In this document: piece after piece, positions 40,825 to 46,466 of the stretch
Position numbering within the stretch: position 1 is the first letter of the stretch
How the letters are laid out: the number at the start of each line of letters is the position of its first letter
Assembly (NCBI RefSeq): GCF_006345805.1
Contig: NC_043008.1
Coordinates: 24,056,001 to 24,120,000, forward strand
Direction: 5' to 3'
Source: Octopus sinensis
Taxonomy: Eukaryota
DNA length: 64,000 nucleotides
Notes under the pieces: generated by a model
The model's input: the letters and a program-made list of their open reading frames with translations, nothing else
What the model was told of the DNA's origin: nothing
Database searches by the model: none
Translations under genes and position numbers: made by a program

Positions 40825-40877
40825 AAGGGACGACTGGAGTGTCGTTTCAAGTGTTAGTATACTCTCATCACCACTTT
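40825..40877 (-). ncRNA. Degenerate hammerhead motif (C3 to G)
   Basis: AAGTG-GTGATGA-GAGT[ATACTAAC]ACTT-GAAA-CGAC[ACTCCA]GTCG-TC-CCTT; GUC site. Confidence 0.55.
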
Positions 40878-41432
40878 AACCACCACAGCGAAATTGTATT
40901 TAAAGACATTTATTACACCTATATCTAAATTAGGTGTATTGATTTGTATATTTTTGACATATTTTGACATATTTTCGACCGTTAGTTCTGTGAGGTAAAT
41001 TACTGGTGTAGCAGCAGAGATTATTTTCCACCCAGAAATTAACTCTGGGGTATATCCAGTAATTTACTTTATATATAATTAAATTTGCATAAGTTATTTA
41101 CTATATATGTGAATGTGTGTTTATATGTATGTATGTATGTATGTATGTATGTATGTATGTATGTATGTATGTATGTATGTATGTATGTATGCATATATAT
41201 ATATATATATATATATATATATATATATATATATATATATATATTATATATATATATATATATATATATATATATATATATATACATATACATATATTTA
41301 TATATATAACACATAATATATATAACACATAAATGCCGCACGCTAGGAGGGGCTCTTAAAGTCAAAATTATCAAAATAAACATATCGTACCGAATGCAAG
41401 TCTTTAAGCAAGTCATTTAAAAACAGAATATA

Positions 41433-41497
41433 GCTGCAGATCACCAGTGATTTCGTAATTAACGCAGTATTTGCGTCCTTTACTCATCGGTGCCAGC
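41433..41497 (-). ncRNA. Hammerhead motif, CCGAUGA core
   Basis: GCTGGCA-CCGATGA-GTAA.GACGCA[AATAC]TGCGTT.TTAC-GAAA-TCAC[TG]GTGA-TC-TGCAGC; all three stems pair; AUC site. Confidence 0.75.
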
Positions 41498-41870
41498 ATG
41501 AATCAAGATTTATAATGAATGGATAAAATCAACATACCAGACGAACAACCATCGTATCCACCGTAGCATATAGAACTGTTCACCCCTTATACATCTATGT
41601 AAACGGCTGGCTTTTTCGAATTCCATTTCGGTAACAACGTGCTTATTTGGAATAAAAATTCAGTATTGAATATACGCCGGTGAAATTTATAATTTAAAAA
41701 TAGGATAAAATCTTCACGCTAACTACTTGATGATATATATATATATATATATATATATATATATATATATATTAATATTTCTAAATCTCTCTAAAGGAGA
41801 CTGCAGCAGCGGTAATGGATATTAATAGTTATCACCAAGCTAACAGCGACACCTGCTGGGTTTGGCTACT

Positions 41871-41911
41871 CTACATTGATAAGGGGCAACTACCCCGAAA
41901 CTAGTCTGTAG
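41871..41911 (+). ncRNA. Hammerhead motif with decayed core (TTGATAA)
   Basis: CTACA-TTGATAA-GGGG[CAACTA]CCCC-GAAA-CTAG-TC-TGTAG. Stems are perfect, with two transitions in the core. The unit has ~20-bp inverted ends at 41826-41845 / 42058-42077. Confidence 0.7.
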
Positions 41912-42523
41912 GTGCCTAACCATCAAGGGGAAGCTGTTGACCTCCCCTGTTCGAAGGTTATAATGGACACAGGTTCGTGTGTCACATAGCTAGCTAGAGG
42001 TGATGGCCTCTTGTAGCTAATGTAGAGCAGCATTCGTCCTATTTTCTTGGACTGTCATGTTAGCTTGGCGATAACTATATATATATATATATTATATATA
42101 CAGCCAAACAGACAGACAGCCAGCCAGGCAGACATGTAGATAAATATATATATATATATATATATATATATATATATATATATATATATATATAATTAGA
42201 GATAAAACCACTATTAGGCAAATCAAACAGTGAAAAACATAAACCAAAACATAGAAATAAAATTAATTAATATAATATACAAAAAATATATAAAATATAA
42301 AATTCAAAATTTAAATTATTTAAATTTAAAGTTAAAATTTTAAAAAAAAATTTTATTATTAACTTATAAATTTATATATATATACACACACATATATATA
42401 TATATATATATATATATATATATATATATATATATATATATATATATAATATATATATATATATATATATATATATATATTATATATATATATACCGGAG
42501 TAAACATGAATGTGAAACAAAAA

Positions 42524-42561
42524 CTGTCTGATGAACGGCAACGAGAAACTCAGAGTAACAG
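42524..42561 (+). ncRNA. Minimal type I hammerhead ribozyme, intact core
   Basis: CTGT-CTGATGA-A-CG[GCAA]CG-A-GAAA-CTC[A]GAG-TA-ACAG; GUA site; stem I extendable (CAAAAACTGT/ACAGATTTTG). Confidence 0.8.
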
Positions 42562-42699
42562 ATTTTGTTGAATTTTCTGCTGCTTAAAATAAAGTATATA
42601 TATATATATATATATATATATATATATGTGTGTGTGTGTGTGTGTGTGTGTATGTATATATATATATATATATATATATATATATTTTATTTATGTTGG

Positions 42700-42992
42700 T
42701 TTATGTTTTCCAGTTTCAGCTCTTGAGCTGTGGCCATGCTGGGGCACCACCATTTGGTGTTGCTAACTGATTTTACCTCACGAATGCTTTTTAGCAACTG
42801 CCATTTGGTGCATGAGAGAGTTTGATGCAGCTGCCCTCATCTGCACCTCCTGCCGTGAAGTTGGTTCATCCTGGACACCTGACAGGAAGAGATCCAGTCC
42901 TACTTTAAAGACCTCCGCATCCACCCCATGCAGGTCCCTCAGGTTCTTCGGGAGGATACTGAAGAGTTGTGGGCCTCTGAAGTACAGGCTAT
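42700..42992 (-). mobile_element. 3' end of a CR1-group LINE (ORF2 C-terminus + tail)
   Basis: SLYFRGPQLFSILPKNLRDLHGVDAEVFKVGLDLFLSGVQDEPT...RAAASNSLMHQ, then tail GGTGGTGCCCCAGCATGGCCACAGC. Confidence 0.75.
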
Positions 42993-43138: not shown

Positions 43139-43834
43139 GATAATATTTAAATAAATAATCAAATATATTTAAACAACATTTTTTAAAGAAATAAGTAAAT
43201 AATAATTTTTCTTATAAGAAACTCTATTATCAAACTGGAAACTTTAACGATTATGATTATGTCATACAATCGATTATAGTGTTAAATATTAATTTTTAAG
43301 GTAAGAATAGATAGAAAATGTATTTATTCAGATATAATATGGTTTTAAAAAAACATAATTAACCCACAAATAATCAAATCTCAGTTATAGTCAATATCTA
43401 ATTACCTAAATATTTAACAAAAAAAAAACACTATTCATATTATTAAATTTAATTTCAAGTCAAATAATTATATAATACTTGAATAATAACTGAATTATCA
43501 ATGAATATATATAAATGTATACAAACATAAGAATTAAGATCTAAAATTATCTGTATCAATAAATATATATGCACGTATAATAAATTAATTATTCATTATT
43601 ACTTATAAATATATTAAAAAATTGAAGATGAAAAAGCTAATTGTAAACAAACAAACTATCTTAAAAGAACACTGTAACTAATTAACGATCCATATATCTC
43701 GTTGGCTAATTAATAACTTACAAAAACCGTATAGTTAAGAATTAAATTGAAATAAAAAATTTCTTAATGAAATAATCAATTGATTAGTATTTATTTTGAA
43801 TATTAATAATATGATATATAATATATATATATAC

Positions 43835-44242
43835 TCTTACTCTCTTTTACTCTTTTACTTCTTTCAATCATTTGACCGCGGCCATGCTGGAGCACCGCCT
43901 TTAATCGAGCAAATCGACCCCGGGACTTATTCTTTTGTAAGCCTAGTACTTATTCTATCGGTCTCTTTTGCCGAACTGCTAAGTAACGGGGACATAAACA
44001 CACCAGCATCGGTTGTGAAGCAATGCTAGGGGAAAAAACACAGGCACACAAACACACACACGCATATATATATATATACATATATACGACTGGCTTCTTT
44101 CAGTTTCCGTCTTCCAAATCCACTCACAAGGATTTGGTCGTCCGAGGCTATAGTAGAAGACACTTGCCCAAGGTGCCACGCAGTAGGACTGAACCCGGAA
44201 CCATGTGGTTGGTAAACAAGCTACTTACCACACAGCCGCTCC
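43835..44242 (-). mobile_element. CORE-like tRNA-SINE, full length
   Basis: Reverse complement of the 25927-26285 family (GGAGCGGCTGTGTGG, GGTTCAGTCC, GGCACCTTGGGCAAGTG, tail GGCGGTGCTCCAGCATGGCCGCGG). Confidence 0.9.
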
Positions 44243-45424
44243 TGTATATATACTTATCTTATACTAGAGTTAAGTTTATATTTTGTTATATTTCTGTTAT
44301 AAATTAGTTAAACCTTGCAAAGCTAAGTATATATTTATATTTAAGATTTAAAAATTTTTAAAATTTAAATATTTTAATATGTATTATTGTATAATTTTGT
44401 ATTTATATAAATACTGATTGTTATGTAATGATTTGGTTATCATAGTTTTTTTTATATAATTATTAGATTTTAACTCTACGTTTATTCGTAAGACTTTACT
44501 TAGCCAAAGAGATATATAGATCGTTAACAGTTATACGAGTTTTTTAAAGTTAGGTTTCATGTATAGACATGTATTGATAGCATAAATTTTAGTCTTTAAT
44601 AACTATATTTGTTGAGAGCTATTTTAAATATTTTATAATTGCTATTATAACATATATATTGATTTCTTCAGTGGATAATTAGTAATAGCATTTTTTCCAT
44701 TGATAGATATATTCGTAGCATATATTGGATATTATATAACTACGGATTGATTATTTCACTATATAACTACGGATTGATTATTTCATTAAGTATTTTTTAT
44801 TTCCTTTTAATTCTTAACTATACGGTTTTTGTAAGTTATTATTTAGCCAACGAGATATATGGATCGTTAATTAGTTATAGCGTTCTTTTAAGATAGTTTG
44901 TTTGTTTACAATTAGCTTTTTCATCTTCAATTTTTTAATATATTTATAAGTAATAATGAATAATTAATTTATTATACGTGCATATATATTTATTGATAGA
45001 GATAATTTTAGATTTTAATTCTTATGTTTGTATACATTTATATATATTCATTGATAATTCAGTTATTATTCAAGTATTATATAATTATTTGACTTGAAAT
45101 TAAATTTAATAATATGAATAGTGTTTTTTGTTAAATATTTAGTTAAGTAGATATTGACTATAACTGAGATTTGATTATTTGTGGGTTTATTATGTTTTTT
45201 TAAAACCATATTATATCTGAATAAATACATTTTCTATCTATTCTTACCTTTAAAATTATTACTTAAAAATTAATATTTAACATTATAATCGATTGTTATG
45301 ACATAATCATAATCGTTAAAGTTTCCACTTTGATAATAGAGTTTCTTATAAGAAAAATTATTATTTATTTATTTATTTTTAAAAAATTGTTTAAATATAT
45401 TTGATTATTTATTTAAATATTATC

Positions 45425-45524
45425 ATTAACCTGAAGATGGACTATAACCATAATTCAAATTATTAATTGAATTTAAATTATTGTTATTCGAATTAGGTTA
45501 TGGGCATGAAACGATCGTAGTGGT
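45425..45524 (+). ncRNA. Hammerhead motif with long stem II
   Basis: ATTAAC-CTGAAGA-TGGACTATAACC...GGTTATGGGCAT-GAAA-CGATCG-TA-GTGGT. Core and palindromic stem III are intact; stem I is weak. Confidence 0.6.
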
Positions 45525-46009
45525 TTTACTTTTTATCTTATATTAAACTTTTTAATACTTTTTGATAGTTATATATTAAAAAAAAATATAAAAAAATAAA
45601 AAAATAAAAAGAAAAATATGAAATAATAAATCCTTAAAATCCTTTAAAATGTTTTAGCCCGAAGGCCGCGGCCATGCTAGGGCACCACCGCTGAAATAAT
45701 AATAAAAATAAAAATAATAAATATATATATATACCAAATATATATATATATATATACCATATATATATATATATATATACCAAATGTAGGATAAAATATT
45801 TTTCGAAAAAATTCTTTTCGAAAAAAATTTTTAAAAATACCATTAAAGGTTAAATTTATAAACAATTCGTAAATAAGGGCAATCGAAAAAATTTCTAATG
45901 CCAAATATGCCGAAAAATTGGACATATTGTCCATTAACCATATAATTGTTTCACAATACGCACGCTACTCGAAAAAAGGTCGACAGAAATTTCTAAAAAA
46001 TTCCATTAT

Positions 46010-46067
46010 TACCATATCGGACCGATTTCATGGTTAGCTTATAACAGCCTTCCCTTCTTCAGTGATA
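46010..46067 (-). ncRNA. Hammerhead motif, minus-strand copy
   Basis: Plus strand TACCA-TA-TCGGACCGA-TTTC...TCTTCAG-TGATA. Confidence 0.7.
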
Positions 46068-46408
46068 CATGTGGCAAAAGGAATAAATGAGAAACTTCTA
46101 AGTCATGAGCACAATTAAGTACCCCAAATACATCCAAAATAGAAATACTCCAGCCCATTCGAGGCACGTGCGATTTGAACTGAGAATTTTTTTCGAAAAA
46201 TATTTTATCCTACATTTGATATAAATTTAAGCGTTCACTTCCGGACTCTTTCACTCTGTGAGAGCCTCAGTTCAAATCGCACGTGTCTCGAATAGGCTGG
46301 AGTATTTCTATTTTGGATGTATTTGGGGTACTTAATTGTACTCACGACTTAGTGTTTGCTTCTTCCATGGGTATGAGTAAGTTTCTCATTTATTTCTTTT
46401 GCCACATG

Positions 46409-46466
46409 TATCACTGAAGAAGGGAGGGCTGTTATAAACTAATCCTGAAATCGGTCCGATATGGTA
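46409..46466 (+). ncRNA. Hammerhead motif, intact core
   Basis: TATCA-CTGAAGA-AGG...CCT-GAAA-TCGG[T]CCGA-TA-TGGTA; near-palindromic stem III; AUA site. Confidence 0.75.

What the first reader, a model, noticed from the sequence alone, without database searches (positions are those of the whole stretch)
40825..46466. Dense cluster of eight hammerhead ribozyme motifs from about six unrelated non-coding units
Seen: motifs at 40825(-), 41433(-), 41871(+), 42524(+), 43039(-), 45425(+), 46010(-) and 46409(+). Each has the order stem I / CUGANGA-like core / stem II / GAAA / short stem III / UH / stem I', with different flanking sequence, and the host units are separated by (TA)n tracts. Established: PLE pseudo-LTRs and retrozymes carry minimal type I hammerheads whose palindromic stem III favours dimeric cleavage. 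Inference: this is a sink of non-autonomous ribozyme-bearing retroelements mobilised by PLE RT such as the Neptune copy 1.6 kb upstream. I know of no description of these cephalopod families but cannot establish novelty without a search.
Basis: partly seen in the sequence, partly recalled or inferred. Interest (0 to 1): 0.85.

Follow-up and report, generated by a model that had tools for sequence, protein, structure and literature searches.

The report
Nested Penelope retroelement ends with hammerheads
Six jumping-gene insertions of the known Penelope-like kind lie packed and partly nested in TA repeats here, each carrying an RNA motif predicted to cut itself; two are cut-off ends of protein-coding elements and three are protein-free hitch-hikers that likely borrow a Penelope enzyme, so the cluster is real but mostly ordinary.

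Summary
All eight motifs are in the sequence, but they belong to six insertions, not eight. Two inverted pairs are the two arms of single insertions. Seven motifs sit in high-copy families; 40825(-) is a decayed, unconfirmed candidate. Three motifs (42524, 43039, 45425) are 3' ends of two protein-coding Hydra-type Penelope-like elements (PLEs), so 'non-autonomous' is wrong for them. Four motifs lie in three ORF-less 361-499 nt head-to-tail families (retrozyme-like). Their copies carry a PLE footprint: two fixed 3' ends (66 of 78 loci), inverted arms that use the other end (21 of 22), and TA flanks (52 of 78). Helices covary, and the palindromic helix III stays palindromic in diverged relatives. 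No link to the neighbouring Neptune copy was found; it has its own hammerhead-like motif at 40531. The cluster is about 25-fold denser than random genomic samples, likely because of (TA)n targeting and nesting; a few hundred such windows are expected genome-wide. PLE hammerheads, an octopus Hydra family and retrozymes are published, and this scan has noted the same pattern at many other loci of this genome. Cleavage, circles and the partner enzyme are untested.

The parts
37283..40677 (+). Neptune-type PLE copy: broken RT and GIY-YIG frames (37283-39242) and a 1.4 kb 3' UTR that ends at a TA tract just before the cluster
   Evidence: Pfam RVT_1 E 3e-10 and GIY-YIG E 7e-6; 3' UTR shared with other copies; Neptune label from the Cys-rich linker, recalled, no tree
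40524..40570 (+).
   Evidence: Helix III/cleavage motif found in 21 of 30 Neptune loci; score 6
40825..40877 (-). U1: decayed hammerhead candidate (G at position 3, broken helix I) in an old, rare ~350 nt unit; not confirmed
   Evidence: Only 3 other genomic matches, 77-78% identical, ending before the motif; 0 of 60 random loci
41284..41716 (-). U2: copy of a ~499 nt ORF-less head-to-tail family, ending at its first 3' site
   Evidence: 1494 candidates, 40 scored; monomer and ends
41430..41498 (-). U2 hammerhead (CCGAUGA core here, CUGAUGA in most copies; AUC triplet; 12-nt near-palindromic helix III)
   Evidence: Alignment A2 and pair counts
41763..42084 (+). U3: copy of a ~361 nt ORF-less family; inverted arm about 41763-41845 ending at site 2, sense arm about 41844-42084 ending at site 1
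   Evidence: 2225 candidates, 40 scored; architecture
41864..41916 (+). U3 hammerhead (U3-A8 core, GUC triplet, 6-nt palindromic helix III that needs a dimer)
42177..46870 (.). U5: one 5'-truncated insertion of a Hydra-type PLE 3' UTR, as two inverted arms (left 42177-42494 and 42990-43780 on -, right about 44245-45640 and 46612-46870 on +); other elements are nested in its TA/A-rich segment and between the arms
   Evidence: Collinear with L140-L146; continues into Hydra-type ORF pieces in L141 and L144
42496..42592 (+). U4: terminal stub of a young Hydra-type PLE (inverted 25-nt tail end plus 77-nt sense end) nested in the U5 left arm; hammerhead at 42519-42565 (CUGAUGA, 2-bp helix II with GCAA loop, GUA triplet)
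   Evidence: 39 of 40 scored places 100% identical over 77 nt or more; downstream of the ORF in 30 of 30 loci; full element with a 711-aa ORF in L276
43039..43141 (-). U5 hammerhead, left arm (CUGAAGA, long helix II, 8-nt palindromic helix III, weak helix I)
45425..45525 (+). U5 hammerhead, right arm (inverted copy of the former)
45770..46610 (.). U6: fold-back insertion of a ~488-495 nt ORF-less family nested in the U5 right arm; hammerheads at 46005-46071(-) and 46405-46471(+) (AUA triplet, 11-nt near-palindromic helix III)
   Evidence: 2457 candidates, 40 scored
42700..42990 (-). LINE-like coding fragment nested in the U5 left arm (no hammerhead)
   Evidence: Open reading piece on the - strand; the LINE label is recalled
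43842..44245 (.). Very abundant short repeat (SINE-like) between the U5 arms (no hammerhead)
   Evidence: Matches in 49 of 60 random 10-kb loci; the SINE label is recalled

Best explanation
The cluster is a pile of six insertions, partly nested, at TA-rich sites: two truncated ends of protein-coding Hydra-type Penelope-like elements, three copies of ORF-less hammerhead-bearing families likely copied in trans by a Penelope-type reverse transcriptase, and one decayed candidate. Likely mechanism: a PLE endonuclease nicks (TA)n on both strands. The RT starts inside the element RNA at one of two fixed sites 56-100 nt apart, which gives a sense arm and often an inverted arm, only one of which carries the tail. 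The ORF-less RNAs are read for more than one unit, so the template would be a circle or an uncut multimer. The hammerheads are predicted to cut mainly as dimers through their self-complementary helix III; they do not define the insertion ends. Each insertion brings or extends TA-rich DNA, which would attract the next one. Shown: motifs, families, ORF linkage, end sites, nesting. Inferred: enzyme, template form, cleavage.
For: U4 follows a Hydra-type ORF in 30 of 30 loci. L276 is a complete inverted arm + pLTR + 711-aa ORF + pLTR element with this hammerhead in all three repeats. U5 is collinear with Hydra-type ORF pieces in L141 and L144. U2, U3 and U6 are head-to-tail monomers. In 78 loci: 66 sense 3' ends fall within 5 nt of two sites per family, 52 abut TA, 36 exceed one unit, and 0 start at the cleavage site. 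Of 38 loci with an inverted arm, 22 have both ends at defined sites, and 21 of these use one site each. This matches the tail and two RT start sites of PMC11167929 and the inverted 5' copy and (TA)n bias of PMC8557442. Both-sided changes: 17 cells in U3 and 21 in U2, 0 of 500 shuffles reach these values. Helix III stays palindromic in 81-82% identical U3 relatives through two different double changes. Dimer folds are lower in energy than two monomers for all nine motifs, and the U3 dimer has the full hammerhead pairing.
Against: No partner PLE was identified for U2, U3 or U6. Cleavage was not measured, and in PMC11167929 cleavage was dispensable for insertion in vitro. The end sites were defined from the same loci, and loci are the best matches to my queries, which favours long copies. 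The covariation control ignores relatedness; the number of pairs with both-sided change is weak (21/500 for U3, 275/500 for U2) and further pair types do not exceed shuffles. Core versus flank mismatch (my sums) is 3.1% vs 7.3% in U3 but 4.8% vs 6.1% in U2 and 2.3% vs 2.5% in U6. The monomer minimum-energy folds of U1, U2, U5 and the Neptune motif are not the hammerhead fold. Pfam gave no RT or GIY-YIG hit for 5 of 5 Hydra-type fragments; their assignment rests on tblastn and on motifs compared by eye.
Confidence: 0.85

Rival explanations
1. All units are non-autonomous elements mobilised by the neighbouring Neptune family.
For: The Neptune family is young and abundant (150 matches at 81-100% identity) and ends at TA. 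Its 3' motif shares the U3-A8 core and a 6-nt palindrome with U3, and a similar motif abuts another Neptune-like RT in L235.
Against: U4 and U5 have their own ORFs. No significant similarity between U2/U3/U6 and the Neptune element. Only U3 has a weak, motif-level link.
Confidence: 0.05
2. U2, U3 and U6 are pLTR-derived satellites amplified at DNA level (unequal crossover, replication slippage), with hammerheads as passengers.
For: Head-to-tail repetition; a local tandem-amplification route is proposed in bioRxiv 10.64898/2026.07.22.740005 (discussion read).
Against: Copies are dispersed and mostly 1-2 units, with fixed 3' ends, variable 5' ends and asymmetric inverted arms; helix covariation implies selection at RNA level.
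Confidence: 0.07
3. The locus is a selected or functional ribozyme array (for example host transcript processing).
For: About 25-fold higher density than random samples (4 in 6 kb vs 16 in 600 kb at score >=10).
Against: Mixed strands, nested insertions, decayed copies. About 270 six-kb windows with 3 or more good motifs are expected even under random placement.
Confidence: 0.02
4. The motifs are chance patterns in AT-rich repeats.
For: No Rfam hit; a relaxed descriptor also returns 4 AT-rich hits in the cluster; U1 is unconfirmed.
Against: 158 hits in 738 kb of loci vs 4 in two shuffles of them; 16 vs 0 at score >=10 in 600 kb of random DNA; family-level conservation and covariation.
Confidence: 0.02

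Closest known systems
Hydra clade of C-terminal EN+ Penelope-like elements (Craig et al. 2021, PMC8557442; Hydra-1_Obim and coral Hydra families)
   Same: RWK and DKT motifs, C-terminal CxxC and CxH, canonical hammerhead in the 3' end, (TA)n insertion, tail at one end, inverted 5' copy. The U4 hammerhead closely resembles that of the coral record preceding Hydra-1_Obim in the supplement (Hydra-2_Amil by order and translation; inferred).
   Different: Both families here differ from Hydra-1_Obim in protein and hammerhead (by eye) and are longer than the '<3 kb' norm (3.35-3.43 kb unit; over 5 kb with a 3.1 kb 3' UTR). U4 has only a 2-bp helix II; U5 has a weak helix I; 5 of 6 displayed U4-family ORFs have F at the second Cys of the linker.
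Metazoan non-LTR retrozymes (Cervera and de la Pena 2020, PMC7229834; Li, Clavereau and Pollet 2026, bioRxiv 10.64898/2026.07.22.740005)
   Same: ORF-less, low-GC, head-to-tail monomers with one type I hammerhead each; proposed PLE dependence.
   Different: Mostly 1-2 unit dispersed copies with inverted arms and two fixed 3' ends rather than long arrays; U2 and U6 (~490-500 nt) exceed the 170-400 nt of the 2020 paper but fall within the 51-972 bp of the preprint; circular RNA not shown here; no cephalopod in the passages read.
Minimal PLE hammerheads (Cervera and de la Pena 2014, PMC4209133)
   Same: Type I topology, U3-A8 core variant, palindromic helix III, thousands of solo copies from truncated PLEs, opposite-strand pairs 100-700 bp apart.
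   Different: Several motifs here have longer helices III (8-12 nt) and long or interrupted helices II.
Anolis Poseidon PLE mechanism (Frangieh et al. 2024, PMC11167929)
   Same: Two internal RT start sites bounding a tail; AT-rich targets; ends not at the hammerhead cut.
   Different: Tails here are 56-100 nt (30-40 there), and the footprint is on ORF-less RNAs; inferred from genomic ends only.

Membership tests
Type I hammerhead ribozyme | Conserved core (C3-G8 or U3-A8, GAAA, UH) | tested here: met
   7 of 8 motifs in family copies; U2 window copy has U4C; not met for 40825 (G at position 3)
Type I hammerhead ribozyme | Three helices supported by covariation | tested here: inconclusive
   Met for U3 and U2 with caveats; U4 invariant; U6 not counted; U5 helix I weak
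Type I hammerhead ribozyme | Match to Rfam hammerhead models | tested here: not met
   None in 36-50 kb; 7 RF00163 matches elsewhere among 74 scored candidates
Type I hammerhead ribozyme | Site-specific self-cleavage | not testable with these tools
   Needs in vitro assay
Hydra-clade PLE (U4, U5) | Single ORF with RT and C-terminal endonuclease upstream of the hammerhead | tested here: met
   708- and 711-aa ORFs; broken ORF pieces in L141/L144 at 25-40% identity to it; Pfam silent
Hydra-clade PLE (U4, U5) | RWK, DKT, C-terminal CxxC and CxH | tested here: met
   Seen in L275; L276 has EKT; CxxC and CxH in L141, where RWK/DKT were not seen
Hydra-clade PLE (U4, U5) | CxCX5C linker | tested here: inconclusive
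   Present in L141 (U5) and L137; C-to-F in 5 of 6 displayed U4-family ORFs
Hydra-clade PLE (U4, U5) | Placement in the Hydra clade on an RT tree | not tested
   No reference sequences were available as tool records
PLE insertion footprint | 5' truncation, inverted 5' arm, tail at one end, (TA)n target | tested here: met
Non-LTR retrozyme (U2, U3, U6) | ORF-less head-to-tail monomer with one type I hammerhead | tested here: met
   (36 of 78 loci exceed one unit)
Non-LTR retrozyme (U2, U3, U6) | Expressed as linear and circular monomer RNA | not testable with these tools
   Only contigs of runs with guessed RNA status were available
Non-LTR retrozyme (U2, U3, U6) | Homology to the pLTR of an autonomous PLE | tested here: inconclusive
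   None to the three PLE families examined; other families not sampled

The most novel reading that the evidence does not exclude
The ORF-less families are circular-RNA parasites that a dimeric Penelope RT reads around the circle from two fixed internal sites, one per target strand. U2 and U6 share a start-site motif and so one still unidentified partner enzyme. The genome may hold 40,000-120,000 intact hammerhead motifs from dozens of such families. This would give direct, nucleotide-level evidence for how animal retrozymes move and a ready in vitro substrate set.
Probability: 0.35. Interest if true: 0.6.

Novelty: new member of a known kind. Interest (0 to 1): 0.3.

Why it matters
The kinds of element are known, and the cluster itself is a by-product of TA targeting. 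What adds something is the footprint on the ORF-less families: two fixed RT start sites used asymmetrically and more-than-unit copies. Published support for PLE-driven retrozyme mobility in the papers I read is co-occurrence and pLTR similarity, and the 2026 preprint leaves the mechanism open. These families, next to a young Hydra-type element with intact ORFs, make trans-mobilisation and the circular-template question testable in vitro. They also show that Rfam misses most hammerheads in this genome.

Tried and rejected
Rfam scan: no hammerhead in the region. Two strict descriptors recovered only 3 of 8 motifs each. U1 family search twice gave the same 3 relatives; one (L034) shows a helix II-like hairpin before GAAA, but no intact core. 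An early reading of U5 as a 1.3-1.5 kb circular monomer was dropped: the 1.29 kb tandem is one locus (L094, L100, L145) and the L099 repeat is a separate piece. RT next to U6 in L117 is a separate insertion beyond a TA tract. Partner search: pairwise comparison of six families (15 pairs) gave only U2-U6 (2 of 100 shuffles reached it); anchored at site 2 it scored 30 vs max 23 in 605 other window pairs, a post hoc test; the shared motif was not found beside an ORF in 277 loci. Expression: no RNA holder listed on record; contigs of 4 of 21 runs were laid on a U6 locus and gave nothing on ends, strand or circles. Look-ups of earlier findings by sequence and by nearness were empty. Literature: four searches showed no description of these particular families; Dfam, Repbase, subscription papers and the preprint's supplements could not be seen, so absence from print is not established.
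Full report
Observation. The eight motifs are in the sequence at the stated places. Rfam finds no hammerhead in 36-50 kb even at E<=10. I wrote three descriptors after seeing the motifs. Two strict ones recovered 3 of 8 each; for the first, shuffles of the cluster gave a mean of 0.065 and a maximum of 1 in 200. A scored one recovered all eight at score >=6, along with four AT-rich hits that look like chance and a ninth motif at 40531, and four of the eight at score >=10, against 0.03 in shuffles.

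Families. I searched the own genome with each unit. U2 (41433), U3 (41871), U4 (42524), U5 (43039/45425) and U6 (46010/46409) gave 1494, 2225, 433, 1710 and 2457 first-look candidates, of which 40 each were scored. U1 (40825) gave three relatives at 77-78% whose matches stop before the motif. Its core has G at position 3 and helix I is broken, so it stays unconfirmed.

Two units are ends of coding elements. U4 lies 0.7-1.1 kb downstream of an ORF in 30 of 30 loci picked by that ORF. L276 holds a complete element: inverted arm, pLTR with this hammerhead, 711-aa ORF, 3' UTR, second pLTR with tail. The protein has RWK, DKT (EKT in L276) and C-terminal CxxC and CxH motifs, as defined for the Hydra clade (PMC8557442, section 11 read); the CxCX5C linker is intact in 1 of 6 displayed copies. 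U5 is collinear at L141 and L144 with broken ORF pieces 25-40% identical to that protein; the hammerhead sits 2.76 kb after the stop, in a 3.1 kb AT-rich 3' UTR. Pfam did not recognise 5 of 5 such fragments, and no tree was built. The supplement of PMC8557442 lists Hydra-1_Obim, an octopus family with a hammerhead and (TA)n preference; by eye it is a different family, while a coral Hydra record carries a hammerhead very like U4.

Three units are ORF-less monomers. U2, U3 and U6 repeat head to tail; consensus monomers are 499, 361 and 488 nt. Mapping 78 loci (window copies included, two duplicate loci dropped) on the circular monomers shows two 3' end sites per family, at 155/253, 178/234 and 164/264 nt after the predicted cut. 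Sixty-six of 78 sense ends fall within 5 nt of these sites, 52 abut TA, 36 arms exceed one unit, and none starts at the cut. Of 38 loci with an inverted arm, 22 have both ends at defined sites and 21 of them use one site each; 16 have at least one end elsewhere. U4 and U5 show the same two-end pattern (tail in 11 of 30; 6 with tail, 9 without, 7 not found of 22). This is the tail and two-start-site footprint described for PLEs (PMC11167929, parts 1-2 of 4 read; PMC8557442, passages). Caveats: the sites were defined from these loci, and best hits favour long copies.

Structure. In U3 (30 copies) 94% of cells pair and 17 change on both sides; in U2 (25 copies) 94% and 21; no shuffle of 500 reaches these. 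The control ignores relatedness, and the count of covarying pairs is weak (21/500 and 275/500). Two U3 relatives found in random DNA, 81-82% identical, keep the core and have each replaced both central bases of helix III by another self-complementary pair. This favours selection for the dimeric helix. Core versus flank mismatch, summed by me, is 3.1% vs 7.3% (U3), 4.8% vs 6.1% (U2) and 2.3% vs 2.5% (U6), so preferential core conservation inside young families is clear only for U3. All helices III self-pair, and dimers fold below two monomers, but monomer folds of U1, U2, U5 and the Neptune motif are not hammerhead-shaped. U5 has a mismatched helix I in all 22 matched copies of 24 and may be weak or inactive.

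Why the cluster. U5 is one insertion spanning about 42177-46870 as two inverted arms. U4 and a LINE-like piece sit in the TA/A-rich segment of the left arm, U6 in the same segment of the right arm, and a very common short repeat between the arms. U1, U2 and U3 lie between TA tracts next to the Neptune 3' end, which reaches 40677 and has its own hammerhead-like motif. Sixty 10-kb stretches taken at round coordinates hold 16 motifs at score >=10 (0 in shuffles), or about 41,000-118,000 genome-wide. The cluster is about 25-fold denser, but about 270 six-kb windows with three or more such motifs are expected even under random placement, and TA targeting would raise that number.

Partner enzyme. 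U2, U3 and U6 show only short low-complexity matches to the Neptune and the two Hydra-type elements. U2 and U6 share a ~30-nt motif at site 2 (score 30 vs max 23 in 605 other window pairs, post hoc), which hints at a common partner. U3 shares the U3-A8 core type with the Neptune motif; this is a lead only.

Mechanism (inferred except where cited). A PLE protein nicks (TA)n and starts reverse transcription inside the RNA at two sites, giving sense and inverted arms. ORF-less RNAs are copied in trans from circles or uncut multimers; the data do not separate the two. Hammerheads would cut as dimers and do not set the ends. Confidence 0.85 for the overall account.

Comparison and verdict. PLE hammerheads with U3-A8 cores, palindromic helix III and opposite-strand pairs are described (PMC4209133, parts 1-2 of 4 read). 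Retrozymes are described (PMC7229834, passages; bioRxiv 10.64898/2026.07.22.740005, parts 1-3 of 5), and 235 Hammerhead_1 loci were counted in giant squid (PMC6962438, passages). Four searches showed no account of these families; Dfam, Repbase and the preprint supplements were not seen. Earlier notes of this scan report the same pattern at other loci of this genome; they are not independent support. Verdict: real, new members of known kinds; interest 0.3.

Noticed in passing
window 40524-40570 (+): Hammerhead-like motif with U3-A8 core in the 3' end of the Neptune family; helix I only 2-3 bp; an unpaired A before GAAA as in U4.
   Followed up: partly
window 9496-10464 (+): C-terminal part of a further Hydra-type PLE ORF with an Asn-rich (AAT)n insertion.
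   Followed up: partly
window 36175-36737: Inverted repeat (arms 92-94% complementary) just upstream of the Neptune copy; possibly another fold-back insertion.
   Followed up: no
window core at 35306(-), 58080(-), 59632(+): Three further descriptor hits outside the cluster (scores 7.8, 11.2, 7.0), not checked against families.
   Followed up: no
window 39258-39941: The Neptune 3' UTR carries an internal ~320-380 nt duplication shared by most copies.
   Followed up: partly
L094, L107, L121, L028, L036, L041, L115, L198, L215, L219, L223, L234, L235, L247, L251, L259, L267, L273: Many further hammerhead families with palindromic helix III and helix II from about 12 to 90 nt.
   Followed up: no
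L141:6237-9009: A third Hydra-type PLE piece with its own hammerhead family (also in L099/L106) lies right after a U5-family element and shares a 231-nt stretch with it at 99%.
   Followed up: no
L212/L213 (G000:C16:25146363-25146839): Two Rfam Hammerhead_1 matches 431 nt apart on one strand, a probable canonical retrozyme dimer.
   Followed up: no
U2, U3, U6 consensus monomers: Folded as circles they are more stable than shuffles (z -4.3, -7.8, -8.5; 15 shuffles each).
   Followed up: partly
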